A stretch of DNA of 64,000 nt from Guillardia theta CCMP2712. Its lineage: Eukaryota; Protista; Cryptophyta. Numbering within the stretch: position 1 is the stretch's first letter; each line of letters begins with the position of its first letter. The translations under genes and the position numbers were made by a program. A model generated the notes under the pieces. The model did no database searches and had not been told where the DNA came from. It saw only the letters and a program-made list of their open reading frames with translations. This document shows, piece by piece, positions 25,832 to 60,890 of this stretch. The DNA is taken from the NCBI RefSeq assembly GCF_000315625.1, contig NW_005434656.1, positions 417,741 through 481,740 on the forward strand. Direction: 5' to 3'.

Positions 25832-26059
25832 AGTCAGTGCTTGTTTCAAGGCTTTCCGAAGTTCTGTTGGCAATAAACACTGAGCACAACAACTGACTCA
25901 GTCGACCATCTCACCTCAGCCTAACTCCGGGTATCATGGCATAATGGCCTGGCCCAGTAGTATGCCCGCCCCCCCCCGCCGCCGGCATGCAGTGCCGTAC
26001 GGTCACTGTCAGTCAACATAATTTGTACCCTCCGCAGGGGGGAATTGAAATAGGCTATT

Positions 26060-26310
26060 AATCGGCCAATAATTTACTAGCACAATACCAGCACAATTGA
26101 AATCAAATCTAAACTTAGTGGCACAATACAGGCACAGTACCGGCACAATACTAGCACAATTGAAATCAGCCAGTAATTTACTGGCACAATTGACACACAA
26201 ACAGCATCAAACCTGGAGTAGATGGCACACTAGTTGAACAATACTGAGCACAATTGAAATCGGCTAGAAATTTACCAGGAAGTTTACAGTGAATTACTGG
26301 CACATTTCGC
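26060..26310 (+). repeat. AT-rich array of ~10 GCACA(A/G/C/T)T-core repeats, three extended as GCACAATTGAAATC
   Basis: Cores near 26080, 26091, 26121, 26132, 26143, 26154, 26184, 26225, 26248, 26300; several spaced 11 bp apart. Confidence 0.8.
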
Positions 26311-26369
26311 CTTCCCCTCTCTGACCTTTATAATGCCTTCTGCTCTCCCTCCTTACCAGAAACTGGGTA

Positions 26370-28583
26370 ATGTCCACGCAAAGGGTGAACGTAACTCGGT
26401 TGAAGAAACTGGCTGCGCAGTTCCTCGATCAAGTCTTCGATGACCAGTTTGCCAAGCTGTCCTACAACGATATGAGATTGAAGATTGGCCAAAGTGAGTT
26501 GGCTTGGTCTTGGCACACCTTGCTCCCCTGCCTGGTGCGAACTGTTCGCGACATCCGAACCAAATTTGGGCTCCCATTTCCAGGTGATTACACACTCTTC
26601 GAGACTTACAACTTTGCCACGGACAGCATGCGAGTGTTTCTGATACACTACCACCCCGACAAGACATTTGGATCGAACTCCGTGCTCGAACGCGATGTCA
26701 TAGAGAAGGCCAACATTGTCTTTTCCAAGTTGCAGGATCTACACCTTCAGACAAAGCAAAGATTCAATATGCGAAACCACTACAATTGGTGGGATATTCT
26801 ACAGTCTCTACTGGATTTCAATGCGACATCCTGTCTGCACAGGACCAAGACCGACGAGTCTCGCTCCGAAAGGCTAAAACGTCAACTGGAGTACGAATAT
26901 CAGATTGACGCACTGTGGCCACACAACAATCCAGACTTGAAGATGAGGAAGATGGATCTTGACAAGAAACGTTTGTTCACACGGAAGGAATACATGTTTC
27001 TCAATGGATACAGAAAAATGCAGATTTTGGACTTAGAACTGAAGAGCAAAGGATTCAACGTGGAACAAGACGAGGATAAGCTTCCAGTCGAGTCAGAACG
27101 CAACACATCCGCTTGCCTGCTTCCTGAGGAATATTGCCCGCTTGCCACCAAGGACCAGCTGGCCTACGAGGTGTTTTTGAATCCAAAAGTTGTGTACAAG
27201 GGATGGAACATGAACGAGCCCTGTCACCTCTTCCGTAAGATCCGCGACATGAAGGATACACTCTGCATTGACAACATTCGGAAGGAATGGAATTACAACC
27301 CCAGAACACTCGAAGAGACCAAGGGTGTGATCCGTTACATTCTGGACATTATTCCTGCATTCTTGTTCAAGGATGAACAAAATCCAGTGATTACAATGTT
27401 TGATACCAAGGATGATGCGAAGTTCGAGGATCAGCTGCAAAACGTCGAAACCATGATTCTGTTTGTTCGTGAGACCATGGCCCTGCTTATCAAGTGCGCT
27501 AGCCTTCATCAAGGGCCTCAGACCACTTGTACCCACCAGAGATGTGGCCGCAAGAAGCTTTCCAACATACGGCAATCAGATCCGAACGAGAACAACTGGG
27601 ACAGAGTGAAACTCCAAGAGATCCAAGAGAAGTGGAACGTCATGAAGAATAGGTTGAGAACCATGACCTCTGACAATGGATTGGAAGTGATTGCCGATGC
27701 CCTCGCATTGGTGCTGGCCTCAGTGCATGACTGCAACGAGATCAAGTTGAACTTCAAGATGTTGGACATCAACATGAAGATCTTTCACGGAACCCCAATA
27801 TTCATCCGCCATCATTTCCACAAGGACCTTCATCAGGACCCATCTCGTGTGGACAGTATGTGTGACTGGATCAAAATCTCTCTTGACTCCCTGCTTGCTG
27901 GCGATGCAACTATCAAGGACAGGCTATTATCTGGTGAGTGCAAGGCGTATGATCTGGTCATGAATGCTTGCATGATGCAATTGATCACCCGCGAGGATTA
28001 TCCTACCAGTACGAATCTACCCTTCATGATGCGATACGACAAGATGCGACTTCGCCAATTCAGGTTGGAGTTTCGAATGGACTGTCTGAGTGTCTCTATG
28101 TTGGGCATTGCTTTGCAACGACTGAGCCGGATCCCCGTTGATTCATCGGATATTCAAGGCAAGCTTATCCAATTCTTCAACAACTACCGTCTGTCCATAG
28201 AGGCTGATACGGCCTTTCCCGAATTCGAGACCAAACAGTACTCCTACGACTTTGTCATTGATTCCCTTCGACGTCACCTCATAGAAGAGGACAAGAACTG
28301 GCTCGCCACCGCGCTATCAGTCGAAGACCCCATCGCTGAACTTTTTGCCTTTCCTGACATACTATGGAATGCCTCCATCATCTCGGTAACCAAGAAATGG
28401 ATGGACATTCTAGCAATGGAACAGCCTCCGGCTTTTGATATCAACTCGGTGCAACGCTTTCCGGTCAAGCAGGTTTACCGTCGCATTTTTCTCAACGCGT
28501 GCTTGTTCCGCAAACTTCTCCATGCCAAGAAGAAACTCTTTAACGGTCCTTTCCGCCGGACCCTTGTTCGGAAGGTTTTGTAG
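26370..28583 (+). CDS. Intronless 737-aa protein: J-domain-like HPD segment plus T-complex-11 (TCP11)-like region; possibly virus-derived
   Basis: Single uninterrupted ORF, lower GC than neighbours; FLIHYHPDK...EKANIVFSKLQD; DQLAYEVFLNP, IRHHFHKDL...SMCDWIK and LPFMMRYDKMRLRQFR resemble TCP11 blocks. Confidence 0.7.
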   Translation: MSTQRVNVTRLKKLAAQFLDQVFDDQFAKLSYNDMRLKIGQSELAWSWHTLLPCLVRTVRDIRTKFGLPFPGDYTLFETYNFATDSMRVFLIHYHPDKTFGSNSVLERDVIEKANIVFSKLQDLHLQTKQRFNMRNHYNWWDILQSLLDFNATSCLHRTKTDESRSERLKRQLEYEYQIDALWPHNNPDLKMRKMDLDKKRLFTRKEYMFLNGYRKMQILDLELKSKGFNVEQDEDKLPVESERNTSACLLPEEYCPLATKDQLAYEVFLNPKVVYKGWNMNEPCHLFRKIRDMKDTLCIDNIRKEWNYNPRTLEETKGVIRYILDIIPAFLFKDEQNPVITMFDTKDDAKFEDQLQNVETMILFVRETMALLIKCASLHQGPQTTCTHQRCGRKKLSNIRQSDPNENNWDRVKLQEIQEKWNVMKNRLRTMTSDNGLEVIADALALVLASVHDCNEIKLNFKMLDINMKIFHGTPIFIRHHFHKDLHQDPSRVDSMCDWIKISLDSLLAGDATIKDRLLSGECKAYDLVMNACMMQLITREDYPTSTNLPFMMRYDKMRLRQFRLEFRMDCLSVSMLGIALQRLSRIPVDSSDIQGKLIQFFNNYRLSIEADTAFPEFETKQYSYDFVIDSLRRHLIEEDKNWLATALSVEDPIAELFAFPDILWNASIISVTKKWMDILAMEQPPAFDINSVQRFPVKQVYRRIFLNACLFRKLLHAKKKLFNGPFRRTLVRKVL

Positions 28584-28608
28584 ATGTCGTAATTTATCCA
28601 AAGGAAAT

Positions 28609-28627
28609 AATAAACGAGTCGTTTATT
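28609..28627. other. Palindromic hairpin AATAAACG-AGT-CGTTTATT, 25 nt after the stop of the 737-aa ORF
   Basis: Perfect 8-bp stem with 3-nt loop; contains AATAAA. Confidence 0.6.
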
Positions 28628-28682
28628 TCGATATGACAGAATCGTTCACAAGCAATGCCAGACAGAGACTGACCGATTGATT

Positions 28683-28839
28683 GGGACCACGAAGGGTACG
28701 GGGGGAGACTGTCTCATCTTAGAGGAGGCGGCATACTGCGAATGCGTGACCCCGCAACGGGAAGGTCGCTCTTTGCGACTAAAAGTGCATTGAGCTGGCC
28801 TGCCCTGCCTGCAAGGCCGACGGGAAGGCACACGAGCGC
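28683..28839 (+). pseudogene. Degenerate fragment resembling a viral DNA-packaging terminase ATPase (herpes/mirusvirus type)
   Basis: Three adjacent frames read GTTKGTGGDCLILEEAAYCE / MRDPATGRSLFATK / CIELACPACKADGKAHER. Confidence 0.55.
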
Positions 28840-28934
28840 CGGGTGTTTGAGGCAGCATGGCTTCACGCGCGTATGGTTCTACAGTATGATGAACTAGCCT
28901 AGCAGGTGTGAACAAAAAGTTTCAGTCGGAGCTT

Positions 28935-29007
28935 CGCCCGATGTGGGGCTCGAACCCACGACCACAAGGTTAAGAGCCTTGCGCTCTGCCGACTGAGCTA
29001 ACCGGGC
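28935..29007 (-). tRNA. tRNA-Lys (anticodon CTT)
   Basis: Reverse complement GCCCGGTTAGCTCAGTCGGCAGAGCGCAAGGCTCTTAACCTTGTGGTCGTGGGTTCGAGCCCCACATCGGGCG: 73-nt cloverleaf with A/B boxes; T5 Pol III terminator at 28914-28918. Confidence 0.97.
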
Positions 29008-29163
29008 ACGTGAAGTTGAGGTAAATGACTATTTTTATAGTCTATTGTTGGATTCAATTGTTGTGGTATGAGGGGCGCCATCGGTTTATATTGCAGGACT
29101 AGGCGGGTTTTTGACAATTTTATAGTTTATTGCAAGTTTAATGGACATGATTGAGTTTGAAAA

Positions 29164-31859
29164 ATGCAAGGAGCGAGGGGGGCAGGAGAGAGGGGAAGGA
29201 AGAGGAAGAAGAGAAGGATCAGGGAGCAGGAGGGGGATAGAAGAGGAATTCCAAGGAAGGGAAAGGTCATAGGATGGATCTTGCCAACTGTAACTGTCTC
29301 TGCAGAGCATGAATCTTGCAGGAAAGCTTCAACAAGCCCTGAGGAACTCAGCGGCCAAGAAGTCAAGGCTTGAGTCCTTGCGCAAAGAGCTGTAACGCGG
29401 CTCATCTCCTCTACCCGCTTCTCTGACTTGATCCTGAAGGCTTGCAATAGAAGCAAAGTCCAGCAAGAATGCAAGCTCTAGAACAACTGGCTCGGAAGGC
29501 GGCATTCCGCATATGCAAGCTCATGGAAACAAACTTGAGATCAGAGCTGAGGAGGAGCAGGTGGGAGCAGGTGAACTGTCAGGTGGGGATGAGGCAACAG
29601 ACGAGGCTGCTCCCCCGCATCTTCCACTGACATCTCAAGGCACTCGATTCTCGCCCTGTGCCGAATGTGAAATGAATCAGCAGGTGAGGAAATCCCACGG
29701 ACAAAGGAGGAGGAGGAGACTGTTCTAGGAGAGTACTCCCTCTACGCGGCTCCTTCCCATCAGCAGAGTTGCGATGCTGCCAGCAGCCTCAGGGAGCAGC
29801 CATGGCAGGAGGCGGCTGAGCGGCTCCATGAGTACGAGGAGATCATCGTGGACTTGCATGCTCGCATGCAGAACATGCTGCAAGTGGTGAGATGGGGGAG
29901 GGGGCAGAGGGAATCTCGTGATGCGATGCCTGTCAGGTACATACGGTAGCGCAAGAGTACCAGCAGGAGAGAGCGACTCTCGAGAAGGAGCTGAGCGAGC
30001 AGAGAGCGCGGCAGGAGGAGGAGGTTGGTCGTGCGTTGAGAAGCTTGCTTGACTTGATTGCTCTCTTCCCTGTTTGTGCTCTTCATCTCGCCCTTGTGAG
30101 TTTGCGATCAGCTCAGAGCTGCGCGAGAAGAATTGAGAGGCGCGCTGAGCAAAGTCGACGAGATGAAGTTGAAACAGCAAAATCGCGCGGTAAGGACGTG
30201 AGAAATGGTCTACCCACTGACAACTTGATTGCAGCACGCGGAAGAACAACTGCGAGTCGAACTTGCGGCAAGTCGGAGGGAGGAACAAGAAGTCTGTCGC
30301 TCTTGATGTCTGCAGGGCCTCCTGACATGTTGCACTCCAGGCGAGGGAGCTGTTGGATTACTTCAGAGACAAGTTCCTTGAGATGGGGGCAGGGAGTGCG
30401 AGAGCAGCTGCATCCTCTGAGTCGAGCTGCCTCCGACAAACTTCGTGTCGTTCGAGGAGCAAGCAGACTTCGCAGGAGGTCGAGCAACCCGTGCAGCTGT
30501 TTGCTCGCAGCCTTCACCCGATTGCTCACAGGATGTCCGAGCTCGAGAGCTGGAGGTGTTTGACCGATTGGTTGACCGTTGACAATTGAGAAGAGGCCGC
30601 AGGTTGCGATGCGAGGAGCTCGGCAAGGAGAACAGAACTCTGACGCGAAGACTTGTTTGCCTCGAGGAGGAGAACATGGACCTGAAGCATGTGAGAGCTC
30701 GCGTGAAGAGTGGGGATGGGAGCAGAAGAGGGAAGAGGAAGAGAGAAGGGAGGGGAGGGGAGGGGAGGGGAGGGGGGCAGAGTTTGGTTGTCTCGTCACG
30801 AAGTGGAGGAGAGCAAGTGATCTGAAGAGGTTCAGGCGAGGGCGACGATGAAGAAAGACTCGAGCAAGGTGCTGCGAACGAGTGAGGTCTGTCTGCAGGG
30901 GATGCAGGTGAGAGAGGGAGGAGGGAGGGAGTTGACCGACGCGACTCGCCAGCGGAAGCTTGCAGCTCAACGCCAGCAGCTGCGAGCGTATGAGATAAGA
31001 AGAAGAGAAGACGACAAGTACATCAGCAGACTAGAGAAGAAGGTGATAGAGGTAAGCAAAGGCCCCCCTGCTCTCCTTCTCTTCCTTCTGCTCTCTCTTC
31101 GCTTGATCGTTGAGCTAGTTGTACCATGCGGTTTCTTGGCCTTTCAGTATGATGGAAGCACCCGGAGACGAGCGTCCGCCAGATTTTCCCTCATCCCTCT
31201 CTCCTCGTCCTCTTCCTCCTCATACACAACAAGAAGATCATCCTGCTGACCTTCAAGAACCAACCGAACTCTCTCCTCCTCACCGCGAGCAGGCGCCTCA
31301 GCCGCACGACCAGCCGGAGCACCCGAAGGAGAGCAGCGGGCAGACGCCCAACGATGGCTGCAGCTTAGACGCCCTCACCGAGGAGGGGAGCAGCGAGAAG
31401 GGAGGGTCGACGGACCACTCCAGCTCTGCTCCTCCTCCCTCACGACCAGACCTGCGCGACGACTTGGTGCTGTCCTCTGACGGTCGAGGAGGAAGCGAGC
31501 GAGGGACAGGAGAAGTCGAGGACGAGACAGCGAGGGAACAAGAGGGACTAGACGGCGAGGAAGGAAGCGAGGAAACTGATGGAGGAGGAGGAGAGGAGGA
31601 GGGGAAGGGGGGAAAGACGGTCAAGGGAGAAGCATCTGACGGAGAGGAGGGAGGAGGAGATACTTCGAGCTCGTTCGAGGTCGAGCTCCAGGCAAGGAGG
31701 AGCAGAGGGAAGAGGGGAGAGGAGAGCAGCATCGCCCTGCCGCTGTACCCACAGGATCTGATGGTGATGCAGTTGCTGTCGCATCTTTCTTGTCTTGACA
31801 CGTCGCAGAGGATGACCCGGAAGATGAGGAGGAAACTCTTCGAGGAACATTTCAAGTGA
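29164..31859 (+). CDS. Hypothetical multi-exon coiled-coil protein with acidic C-terminus
   Basis: Successive E/K/R/Q-rich exons separated by short GT-AG introns; boundaries approximate. Confidence 0.5.
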
Positions 31860-32819
31860 AGGAGCTCTGAGATGCTCTTGTTTCATGTTTGTAAAGTCCT
31901 ATGTTGAACTTACCCTTCACCCTCCCTCCCTCCTCTCCCTCCCTCCCTCCCTCCCTCCTTTCCCGTTGTCTAAACAGCTTCGCCAGCTCTTGCGTCCCTT
32001 CTTTTATCTACATTCAATTCGATCCACCCTCCCTCACGCACTTGACCCCCTCCCGTCAGCTGTAGGGAGCTGGCGCGTTCATCCATAGGGGCAGCCGCTC
32101 CTGCAATGCTTGTAAGGCATCCCCCCCGCCTAGCAGGAGGAGGAGGGACCAGCTCTCGACCCTTGAGTGCGAGGGATCGCGGAGAGTTGAGGAGGAGGTC
32201 GACGTGAGACAGGCTGCATGCTGTCAGCTCCTGCCCTCCTCCTCCACACCACCACAACTACCTCCTGCTTCCCTCCCTTCCCCCCCTTCCCCTTCCCTGC
32301 ATTTTCCTTCTCCTTCTCCTCCTCCTATTCTCCCCTCACGAGTGTTACCGCGATGTGGAGGCAATCATCTTCGACTTTACCGTTAGCGTCTCCGCGTATT
32401 TCCTGCCCGAACTTTGAGCGATGAGAAGGGGGAAGAGGAGCAGGAGCAGAACAAGGGTGGAGGACAAGGGTGGGAGCATGAGCATGAGCATAAGGAGGAG
32501 CAGGACGAGGAGCAGGACAAGTAGCAGGGGGAGGAGGAGCAGGACAAGGACAAGAGTGGGGGTGAAGCGGGGAGAGCAGGAGGAGGAGGAGTCGCTACCG
32601 GAAAGCAAGGTTCTCTCGCTTCTGCCTGGGACTTGTCAACGTCGAGAGCTTCTGCGAGTCAAGTCTGACAAGAATCTCCAGCAGTCAGCTGCTGCTGCCA
32701 CACCTTCTCTTCTTCTCTTCTCCTCTCCTCCCGCAGCGCGTCCACTGTCACCCGCGTGAGCGAGCAAGCGGCCGGAGGAAGGCAGTCACCTATCTCTGCT
32801 GTGGTCTTGCGGGGCTTCT

Positions 32820-44340: not shown

Positions 44341-44582
44341 AGTTGAGCTTCACTGATATTCCATCAAGCGGGTCATTTACCATGCATTTTGACTATCTTG
44401 CTCCCTCATCCAATCTGATTATCGATGAATTAACAAGGACTGGTTTTCGTTCGCTGCTAAGTCAGTGAAATCGTTTGAAGCTGTACTCTGATGAAGCTAA
44501 GAATTCATTCCAAGTCTTAAATGAGAAAAATCTACAGTAAAACAACCACAGAGGCAGCCTGCGTGAAAGACCCTGGGCCCAG

Positions 44583-46272
44583 TTACACGTATTCTTTTTG
44601 AGTTTCTGCTGACGCACTTTCATAAACCTGCAAGTTTGGAATTCATCAGTACCGATCAGAAGAAGAGGAAGCCATGACTCACATCCATCTGAATGATCAT
44701 GAAAGAGAAGAAGCACTTGGAAGTAACATCAAGCAATGCATAGAGGATTGATTCTGCGCTAACTCCCAATCCGCCAGTCCCCACACTCAACAACCATACG
44801 AATGGATAAACTGACCATGAAACCACAGTGAGCAAAGACACTTTGCCATACCTGTCAAGTAGTGAGTGAGAAGCATATAAGGAGCAGTAAAATTACAGTT
44901 CGATTCTATCCATGTCATATTTGTCTGCAAGGGTCGTTACTTCAACTTCTCCAAAATCAATCAAATTACCAAGAACACACTGACGGAAGATTCTTACAAG
45001 CGCAATGACAACGGGAATGTAGACAACAAGCCCGATGACAAACCAAAGCCATTTGACAGTGGGCACGAGTGCAACAGAACCCATGTAACCAGCAAAAATC
45101 ATTCCCACTGTTCCAAAACATGTCAGATATATTCTTCTTGAGAAAAGAAACAAAAAATATGCGAATGTGCCCAAGAAATTAAGAAAAGTGATTAGTGTAT
45201 GCTTGCATAACACACTCTCTAACTTCATCTTCACGCAGGTCACATCAGTCAAATGGTTCACATGAACATCCGAGAGCAACCTCACACTAAGTGAGGCAGC
45301 AAGAGACTTACTGTCCGCGCCCATGATGGCCGCGATCATCCATTGCTCCTCGCCAGCCAGCAGCCCAATGTTCAAGATCATCAGAGGTGTTGTGATGAAC
45401 CAGTCGATATATCTGAAGACTGTTAGGGGAAGCTCTTTCCTCAACCTCTCCGTTCCACCTGACGTAGAACATCTGACGACATCCCATGATAGTCTCCCAT
45501 CCCATTCCGCTGATCATCGCAAAATAGGAGAAGGACGCCACTCCGCATACAAATGCGTTTCTACACAGCTACTCAGCACTCCGTTGTGAGAAAGAGGGTC
45601 AGTAATACATGTAATAGAACTTGCGGACGACAGGATCCGCATTGACAGCCTTGAATGCCATGAAGAGGGCCGTAAAGAGGAGTGCAATCCATGCAAGCAC
45701 ATCAAAGATGGCTCCTGCAGCGCCGTATCAGAGGATTGAACTCAACCAGAGCGGACGGAAAGGGCAAGACAGGTGACAAGACCATCATGGGGATTTCATA
45801 GATCAATGGCAATCACATGTCAAAGAGATGTTATTGACCATCAAGCTGGATACGAAAGTTCTTCACTATGATGTCTCCCATCAAAGTATAACATCCCAAT
45901 GGCACACAGGGGTCGTTCACCACCCAATCACAGCGGTAGAAAGGAAATCTTTCTCGTGGACAACACATGGAATTCACAACGATGGGATGGTACACTGGTT
46001 CTGATTCCATATCATCACACGTGATCTCCTTCAACGACTCCCCTAACTTGTTATCAACAATCACGTCCTCTCCCTCGTCTCCCTCTAATTGCGTGTGCCT
46101 CCTCATACCCCCCTCTCGCCCTCTCCCACAGGATCGAGGAAGGAGCTGTGCATCAGCAGGGAGCAGGAGCAGGGAAAGAGGAGAGGAAGAGCTTACCGGA
46201 GGCTCCTATCTCCTGGATCGCCAGGCAGTCTGCAGGCAGCAGCCTCGACGCCTCCATCCCCTCCTCGACCAT
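44583..46272 (-). CDS. Microbial (type-1) rhodopsin with DTN motif; 8 exons, first exon 46197-46272
   Basis: Spliced protein MVEEGMEAS...GAIFDVLAW...RYIDWFITTPLMILNIG (helix C)...WSVYPFVW (helix F)...LDVTSK (helix G, retinal-binding Lys)...QKEYV*. Confidence 0.95.

Positions 46273-55811: not shown

Positions 55812-60890
<5,079 letters not shown>

What the first reader, a model, noticed from the sequence alone, without database searches (positions are those of the whole stretch)
28683..28839. Frameshifted relic of a herpes/mirusvirus-type terminase ATPase, absent from the ORF track
Seen: 28683-28742 reads GTTKGTGGDCLILEEAAYCE, 28742-28783 reads MRDPATGRSLFATK and 28786-28839 reads CIELACPACKADGKAHER. 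Known: terminase large subunits have (R/K)G-x-x-x-(D/N)-hhhh-(D/E)E-AA at Walker B (e.g. HSV UL15 RGQDFNLLFVDEANF), and herpes-type enzymes have a Cys/His zinc site downstream. From memory, mirusvirus-type terminases show G.GGD.hhhEEAA followed later by D..G..LF...LAC..C...G. The intervening coupling-motif segment is missing; the junction CTGCGA can be read as both YCE and LRM, consistent with a microhomology-mediated deletion. Inference: footprint of a Duplodnaviria virus in this algal lineage.
Basis: partly seen in the sequence, partly recalled or inferred. Interest (0 to 1): 0.85.

Follow-up and report, generated by a model that had tools for sequence, protein, structure and literature searches.

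The report
Decayed mirusvirus terminase exon in alga
A 157-base scrap in the genome of the alga Guillardia theta is the broken remnant of a viral DNA-packaging (terminase) gene, most likely left by an intron-rich mirusvirus, which would point to cryptophyte algae as hosts of that virus group.

Summary
Confirmed. Window 28680-28836 (Guillardia theta) holds three collinear pieces of a terminase. They match a second G. theta gene, GUITHDRAFT_121626, and environmental proteins at 44 of 51 residues (tblastn E 2e-15). Pieces 2 and 3 were not in the search query, and 0 of 1000 shuffles reach their scores.

The relic starts exactly at a conserved splice acceptor: 75 of 75 scorable related loci have AG there. 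In those relatives the exon is 186 codons long, is followed by a gene-carrying intron, and is often far from the ATPase exon. This fits the trans-spliced, MING-1-intron terminase described for Styxvirales and Okeanovirales mirusviruses (PMC12768974).

The window copy has lost its acceptor and about 112 bases with the coupling motif, carries a 2-base frameshift, and stops inside the Cys/His motif, so it is likely dead. The microhomology claim is unproven.

Mirusvirus capsid genes are already reported in G. theta (PMC10827195), so this is a new instance of a known kind. Its value is the likely cryptophyte host link and a possible integration beside a tRNA-Lys.

The parts
28680..28741 (+). Relic piece 1: first 62 bases of the terminase exon, with the Walker B motif; begins at the position of the conserved splice acceptor
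   Evidence: 20 of 20 residues identical to P0003, P0004, P0011, P0012; AG directly before this codon in 75 of 75 scorable relatives, TG in the window
28742..28783 (+). Relic piece 2: exon codons 59-72, after a deletion of about 112 bases that removed the ISTL (coupling-motif) segment
   Evidence: 11-12 of 14 residues identical to the closest relatives; position in 65 of 65 scorable exons; ISTL in 70 of 70
28781..28785 (+). Frameshift: two extra bases at an A run
   Evidence: Met to first Cys is 59 bases here and 57 bases (codon 59 to codon 78) in the relatives
28786..28836 (+). Relic piece 3: exon codons 73-89, the C-x2-C half of a C-x2-C-x8-C-x-H motif (predicted zinc site); homology ends before the third Cys
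   Evidence: 12-14 of 17 residues identical to the closest relatives; motif in 70 of 70 exons
28669..28673 (+). CTGAC, possible remnant of the viral branch point; pyrimidine tract and AG are missing
   Evidence: Two metagenome records that match piece 1 carry the same branch word, a pyrimidine tract and the acceptor at this edge; CTRAY within 48 bases in 52 of 75 loci; that this copy is the viral one is inference
28837..28912 (.). Unassigned 76-base tail between relic and tRNA trailer
   Evidence: No convincing protein or DNA match to the rest of the terminase gene in 80 loci
28934..29008 (-). tRNA-Lys(CTT), convergent with the relic; member of a multi-copy G. theta family
   Evidence: ARAGORN, Rfam; identical contigs at 3-5 times flank depth with other flanks in X1 and X2
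26370..28583 (+). Intronless 737-codon ORF of lower GC (0.48), origin unresolved; annotated as exon 1 of GUITHDRAFT_104880
   Evidence: no relative found; weak Tcp11 match E 3e-4 below cut-off; Atlas leads at 0.82 only
26049..26310 (.). Cluster of short imperfect repeats at the left edge of the low-GC island
29039..29069 (-). Degenerate inverted copy of the repeat unit, beyond the tRNA
   Evidence: 31 bases, 74% complementary to 26085-26115; may be chance

Best explanation
This is a broken, likely non-functional remnant of the second exon of a spliced viral terminase (DNA-packaging motor) gene, most likely left in the Guillardia theta genome by an endogenized intron-rich mirusvirus. Shown: in relatives the ATPase exon ends at a GT donor and this 186-codon exon starts at an AG acceptor just before Walker B. 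The exon carries Walker B, the ISTL motif, a Cys/His motif and the first nuclease Asp, and is followed by a gene-carrying intron and a last nuclease exon. Inferred from PMC12768974: the host spliceosome joins the parts, often in trans, and the protein cuts and pumps the genome into an HK97-fold capsid. Shown for the window copy: no acceptor AG, about 112 bases lost, a 2-base frameshift, and an end inside the Cys/His motif. Inferred history: viral DNA (not a cDNA of the mature mRNA) entered the nuclear genome next to a host tRNA-Lys gene and was eroded by deletions. The order is likely Styxvirales-like (about 0.6).
For: Collinear three-piece match, E 2e-15 and 5e-15; 44 of 51 identities; shuffle and whole-window controls. 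Link to intact terminases, Terminase_6N, gp17 and the herpes subunit. Acceptor in 75 of 75 scorable loci, at most 7 of 75 at any other offset; donor in 68 of 68; ATPase exons end at GT in 7 of 7. In 12 of 17 loci with about 10 kb upstream no ATPase exon was found. One reverse-strand intron ORF family in 64 of 75 loci. Heliorhodopsin in 2 of 5 neighbourhoods scanned. The relic groups with G. theta P0003 and three environmental exons at FastTree support 0.91 among 147 exons. The G. theta assembly is reported to hold mirusvirus capsid, Triplex2 and maturation protease genes. The bases before the exon do not encode the end of the ATPase exon, which argues against a cDNA of the spliced mRNA.
Against: Intact IMG/VR terminases hit the window only at Walker B, E 0.27. 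Pfam and PHROGs do not recognise the relic frames, Pfam does not recognise the 8 closest proteins, and their profile finds a phage terminase in PDB only at E 0.74. The terminase call therefore rests on a two-step chain. No other gene of the 89 fetched loci matches the window apart from a generic kinase (1679 ORFs), so no capsid or portal gene stands beside the relic. The related loci were not assigned to a mirusvirus order by any search (one search found none of 6 contig names in the readable supplements). The 75 loci are not independent (52 distinct exon proteins among 70). In 5 of the 17 long loci the ATPase exon lies 2.5-3.5 kb upstream, so cis-splicing also occurs, and trans-splicing was not observed here.
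Confidence: 0.9

Rival explanations
1. Secondary copy: the relic is not a separate viral insertion but a piece copied within the genome from another G. theta mirusvirus element (such as the one holding GUITHDRAFT_121626) and carried here with the repeat-flanked island.
For: The G. theta paralogue is among the closest relatives. The island has repeats at its left edge and a degenerate inverted copy at its right, and a similar repeat stretch occurs elsewhere in X1 and X2. No other viral gene was detected in the window.
Against: The relic differs from P0003 at 7 of 51 residues and is as close to environmental proteins. X1 and X2 show flat depth over the relic, so no second copy at 85% identity or more was laid. 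The source is viral either way.
Confidence: 0.2
2. The relic comes from another spliced Duplodnaviria lineage (alloherpes-like or an unnamed group), not from Mirusviricota.
For: Alloherpesviruses also split the terminase near Walker B, some at the same sites (PMC12768974). No call assigned the related contigs to a phylum.
Against: Herpes terminase is only a distant match (E 0.0027 through an intact relative). The intron-borne gene at a fixed site in the nuclease region is described as having no homologues outside Mirusviricota and a matching arrangement is seen here. Heliorhodopsin neighbours.
Confidence: 0.05
3. Chance resemblance, or a fragment of a cellular SF1/SF2 helicase.
For: Each piece is short; direct library scans are blank.
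Against: 44 of 51 identities in order over three frames, with 0 of 1000 shuffles reaching pieces 2 or 3. No helicase family hit on the relic or its relatives.
Confidence: 0.01
4. Functional co-option: the relic is read as part of the upstream ORF's transcript and yields a peptide or a regulatory 3' UTR.
For: A 2189-base contig of X6 (RNA by guess only) runs unspliced through the ORF end and the relic to 28873.
Against: The ORF stops at 28583. The relic has three frames, no acceptor and no start for piece 1. In the one raw RNA run laid (about 6% read) the bin 28648-28774 had no reads, though depth over the whole island was near zero.
Confidence: 0.04

Closest known systems
Trans-spliced, MING-1-intron terminase genes of Styxvirales and Okeanovirales mirusviruses (PMC12768974)
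   Same: Split near Walker B with canonical splice sites; in relatives, a gene-carrying intron at one fixed site in the nuclease region.
   Different: The window holds only 157 bases of one exon, broken, inside a host chromosome. Order not formally assigned; the paper's alignment figure of splice sites was not visible to me.
Mirusvirus clade E03 elements of cryptophytes, including G. theta GCA_000315625.1 (PMC10827195)
   Same: Same host genome; endogenous mirusvirus sequence.
   Different: That survey used capsid, portal, triplex and maturation markers, not terminase. Whether the relic and the E03 capsid come from the same virus was not testable.
GUITHDRAFT_121626 (P0003), G. theta
   Same: 44 of 51 residues identical over the relic; holds the whole 186-codon exon.
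   Different: Open reading frame without the deletion or frameshift; on an 84.6 kb contig; annotated only as hypothetical.
Intronless terminases on IMG/VR giant-virus contigs (L001-L008; likely Demutovirales-type mirusviruses, my inference)
   Same: Same Walker B, D..G..LF and Cys/His layout.
   Different: About 30-35% identity; no intron at Walker B.
HSV-1 tripartite terminase subunit 3 (UL15) and T4 gp17
   Same: Same superfamily of packaging ATPase-nucleases.
   Different: Distant; detectable only through an intact relative.

Membership tests
Terminase large subunit (Duplodnaviria) | Walker B motif hhhh-D/E-E | tested here: met
   Present in piece 1; aligns to gp17 Walker B through L004
Terminase large subunit (Duplodnaviria) | Walker A ATPase half in the same gene | tested here: not met
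   Absent from the window (best E 0.17); present as a separate exon in 7 relatives
Terminase large subunit (Duplodnaviria) | Coupling motif (motif III; the label is recalled) | tested here: not met
   Deleted in the relic; ISTL in 70 of 70 relative exons
Terminase large subunit (Duplodnaviria) | RNase H-fold nuclease with acidic residues | tested here: not met
   Absent from the window; DPAAGG in 70 of 70 exons and ERNLG plus a DD motif in 51 last exons. Failure reflects decay: it is a relic of a terminase, not a working one.
Terminase large subunit (Duplodnaviria) | Significant homology to intact terminases | tested here: met
   Relic to P0003/P0004 E 2e-15, these to intact terminases E 1e-30, those to PF03237 above cut-off
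Mirusviricota, intron-rich orders (Styxvirales/Okeanovirales) | Terminase split at a canonical splice site near Walker B | tested here: met
   75 of 75 acceptors, 7 of 7 donors in relatives; relic starts at that base
Mirusviricota, intron-rich orders (Styxvirales/Okeanovirales) | Trans-splicing of the two halves | tested here: inconclusive
   12 of 17 long loci lack the ATPase exon within about 10 kb; 5 have it 2.5-3.5 kb away; no joined RNA seen
Mirusviricota, intron-rich orders (Styxvirales/Okeanovirales) | MING-1 gene in a fixed intron of the nuclease region | tested here: inconclusive
   One ORF family in that intron in 64 of 75 relatives; no MING-1 reference was available to compare; the region is absent from the window
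Mirusviricota | HK97-fold capsid, portal and triplex genes in the same genome | not testable with these tools
   No host genome held and no mirusvirus profiles; published table: capsid yes, Triplex2 yes, maturation yes, portal no, Triplex1 no for this assembly
Mirusviricota | Placement among curated mirusvirus terminases by phylogeny | not testable with these tools
   Trees held only unclassified relatives
Herpesvirales | Closest similarity to UL15-type terminases | tested here: not met
   Herpes match E 0.0027 only through L004; none for the close-relative profile
SF1/SF2 helicases | Helicase domain match | tested here: not met
   No helicase family for relic frames or the 8 closest proteins

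The most novel reading that the evidence does not exclude
The relic marks the end of a Styxvirales-type mirusvirus genome that entered a cryptophyte chromosome by recombination between a virus-borne tRNA-Lys, lying right after the terminase gene, and a host tRNA-Lys gene: phage-style integration at a tRNA by a eukaryotic relative of tailed phages. Two related loci (L073, L085; 2 of 48 with the gene end in view, probably one lineage) carry a convergent tRNA-Lys directly after the terminase stop, the same order and orientation as relic and tRNA-Lys here.
Probability: 0.12. Interest if true: 0.75.

Novelty: new member of a known kind. Interest (0 to 1): 0.4.

Why it matters
The intron-rich mirusvirus orders are predicted to replicate in the nucleus, and their hosts are largely unknown (PMC12768974, passages). 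A terminase exon of that architecture twice in a cultured cryptophyte (this relic and GUITHDRAFT_121626) likely ties that virus group to cryptophytes (my estimate about 0.6) and names a culturable host for isolation. I did not find this link stated in five literature searches, but three large supplementary tables and the splice-site figure of PMC12768974 were not readable and may cover it. The relic itself is likely inert. It also suggests that GUITHDRAFT_104880 is a fused gene model and that GUITHDRAFT_121626 should be re-annotated as a viral terminase exon.

Tried and rejected
No host genome is held, so the search for an intact copy rested on the protein database. Pfam and PHROGs on the three relic frames gave nothing useful. 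Viral-contig scans with clade-specific patterns found 1 chance match (L009) and then 0 and 0; the exon alignment found 0 of 58 candidate stretches there. The tail 28837-28912 matched no later terminase exon. A cDNA origin from the spliced mRNA was rejected because the ATPase-exon end is not upstream. The palindrome at 28610-28626 does not give a more stable fold than shuffles (z 0.08). For the 737-codon ORF: no relative among 5545 candidates of 411-1311 residues, none in 80 loci or viral contigs; the single-sequence fold was unusable (pLDDT 34); Atlas hits were at chance level; the profile search over representatives was queued and had not finished. No RNA holder was listed on record, which says nothing on expression. 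An IQ-TREE run timed out; FastTree was used instead. Six contig names, Guillardia, and Tcp11 were not found in the readable supplements of PMC12768974. Three look-ups of earlier findings were empty.

Full report
Setting. The window belongs to the cryptophyte Guillardia theta CCMP2712: the long ORF beside the finding is residues 1-701 of GUITHDRAFT_104880. Flanking genes are intron-rich host genes. From about 26000 to 29100 the GC content falls to 0.41-0.51 in most 200-base bins, against 0.52-0.59 on either side. This island holds a repeat cluster (26049-26310), an intronless 737-codon ORF (26370-28583), the finding, and a tRNA-Lys(CTT) on the minus strand (28934-29008). The gene model treats 28473-29302 as an intron, which explains why the relic is unannotated.

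Observation. Library scans of the frames were blank. A degenerate pattern for the Walker B motif pulled 8 IMG/VR loci, all intact terminases of about 600 residues. Two were scanned and match Pfam Terminase_6N above cut-off; one was searched against PDB and matches T4 gp17 (E 2.5e-5) and the herpes tripartite terminase subunit 3 (E 0.0027). They hit the window only at Walker B, E 0.27.

Close relatives. A search with the 59-residue frame holding piece 1 returned 8 proteins among 46 candidates. The best is a second G. theta gene, GUITHDRAFT_121626 (P0003). P0003 and P0004 hit all three pieces in order (E 2e-15 and 5e-15), with 20 of 20, 11-12 of 14 and 12-13 of 17 identities. Pieces 2 and 3 lie in other frames and were not in the query, so they are independent confirmation. 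All 8 proteins align to the intact terminases at 30-35% identity, E 1e-28 to 1e-31. A profile from 52 distinct exons scores the pieces 77, 37 and 47 bits; the next best window positions score -16, 3 and 2, and 0 of 1000 shuffles reach piece 2 or 3. The family is large: 1115 proteins at E 1e-20 or better among 7997 scored, of which 120 were listed; among those only P0003 carries an organism name.

Gene anatomy in relatives. A scan of metagenome contigs found 489 relatives and kept the best 80. Five were dropped (4 too near a contig end, 1 without the motif). In 75 of 75 the bases before the first relic codon are AG; no other offset from 6 to 29 has more than 7; 52 of 75 have a CTRAY branch word within 48 bases. 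The exon is 558 bases in 69 of 70 and ends at GT in 68 of 68 with enough sequence. A next exon was located in 59 loci, 913-1249 bases from the acceptor. The intron between holds a reverse-strand ORF in 69 of 75 loci, 64 of them one family. Seven loci show the ATPase exon 1.2-3.5 kb upstream, and all 7 end at an in-phase GT. Twelve of 17 loci with about 10 kb upstream show none; divergence or introns could hide it. In predicted proteins, 111 of 125 kept (20 skipped) have Gln, the reading of CAG, before the exon. Two metagenome records laid on the window match from 28679 and carry branch word, pyrimidine tract and acceptor ahead of it. These loci are not independent samples. The layout matches the description in PMC12768974 (section 9): terminases split near Walker B, mostly trans-spliced outside Demutovirales and Soporavirales, with MING-1 in a fixed intron of the nuclease region in Okeanovirales, Styxvirales and one cryptic family. 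That paper finds Okeanovirales only in the sea and Styxvirales also in fresh water; the high-depth relative in X7 is from a freshwater metagenome. Styxvirales-like is therefore my inference, not a test. Heliorhodopsin occurs in 2 of 5 neighbourhoods scanned (43 ORFs).

Lesions in the window. The acceptor reads TG; a CTGAC lies 6 bases upstream without a tract. After 62 exon bases the sequence jumps to codon 59, a loss of about 112 bases that includes the ISTL motif. Two extra bases sit at the A run 28781-28784. Homology ends at 28836, before the second half of the C-x2-C-x8-C-x-H motif that 70 of 70 exons keep. Contigs of X1 and X2 reproduce the locus and join it to host DNA on the left. That the relic starts at the exon edge is expected, since only coding sequence is conserved; it needs no RNA intermediate, and the ATPase-exon end is not upstream.

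Origin and neighbours. The relic groups with P0003, P0011, P0012 and P0037 (FastTree 0.91, 147 distinct exons; 0.88 in the smaller tree); 51 sites do not resolve the order within that group. No other gene from the 89 loci matches the window except a kinase. The 737-codon ORF has no relative in the searches that finished, so whether it is viral is open. The tRNA is identical to other G. theta copies at 3-5 times flank depth and is likely a host gene. Yet L073 and L085 carry a tRNA-Lys(TTT) convergent right after the terminase stop, 2 of 48 loci with the gene end in view. They are not the closest relatives by protein, and the anticodon differs, so this may be coincidence.

What is known. PMC10827195 lists G. 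theta among three cryptophyte assemblies with clade E03 mirusvirus capsids (passages; section 7) and scores the assembly positive for capsid, Triplex2 and maturation protease, negative for portal and Triplex1 (supplement row). Of PMC12768974 I saw passages, sections 6, 7 and 9 and supplement searches; Guillardia and cryptophytes are not named in the text or the readable files, but three large tables, one scanned file and the figures were not seen. Passages only: 10.1101/2025.04.19.649669 (integration-like mirusvirus regions mainly outside Demutovirales; Guillardia not named; supplements not seen), 10.64898/2026.08.06.743156, PMC12747079 and PMC12220804 (no tRNA near cryptophyte polinton-like virus insertions). 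Search listings.

Verdict. A real, likely dead remnant of a spliced mirusvirus-type terminase exon (0.9). It is a new member of a known kind, interest 0.4, owing mainly to the likely host link for intron-rich mirusviruses and the open tRNA question.

Noticed in passing
window 26370-31867: Gene model GUITHDRAFT_104880 likely fuses the intronless island ORF (natural stop at 28583) to downstream host exons; a contig of X6 (RNA by guess) reads through the annotated donor at 28473 unspliced.
   Followed up: partly
window 26370-28583: The orphan ORF has an HPD motif near residue 84 that recalls a J domain (recalled label; Atlas J-domain lead at 0.82, chance level) and a weak Tcp11 match.
   Followed up: partly
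protein P0003 (GUITHDRAFT_121626): An uninterrupted copy of the same terminase exon on an 84.6 kb G. theta contig, annotated as hypothetical; likely marks a larger mirusvirus element.
   Followed up: partly
L073 3781-3855, L085 3644-3718: Virus-side tRNA-Lys(TTT) convergent directly after the terminase stop codon.
   Followed up: partly
L028, L043, L044, L049, L054, L064, L066: ATPase exon lies 1.2-3.5 kb upstream of the Walker B exon; in L028, L066 other long ORFs lie between, so a multi-gene intron or short-range trans-splicing is possible.
   Followed up: no
window 26166-28620, run X7: A freshwater metagenome holds pieces 97-100% identical to the island ORF but only about 92% identical to 29024-29400; one contig leaves the window sequence after 28620 (11 letters only).
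   Followed up: no
window 26049-26310 and 29039-29069: Short imperfect repeats at the left edge of the island with a degenerate inverted copy beyond the tRNA; a related repeat stretch exists elsewhere in G. theta runs.
   Followed up: partly
window about 44580-45800, minus strand: Intron-containing microbial (type 1) rhodopsin gene in a low-GC stretch (Pfam Bac_rhodopsin).
   Followed up: no
window 59481-60369: Assembly gap of 889 N between simple repeats.
   Followed up: yes
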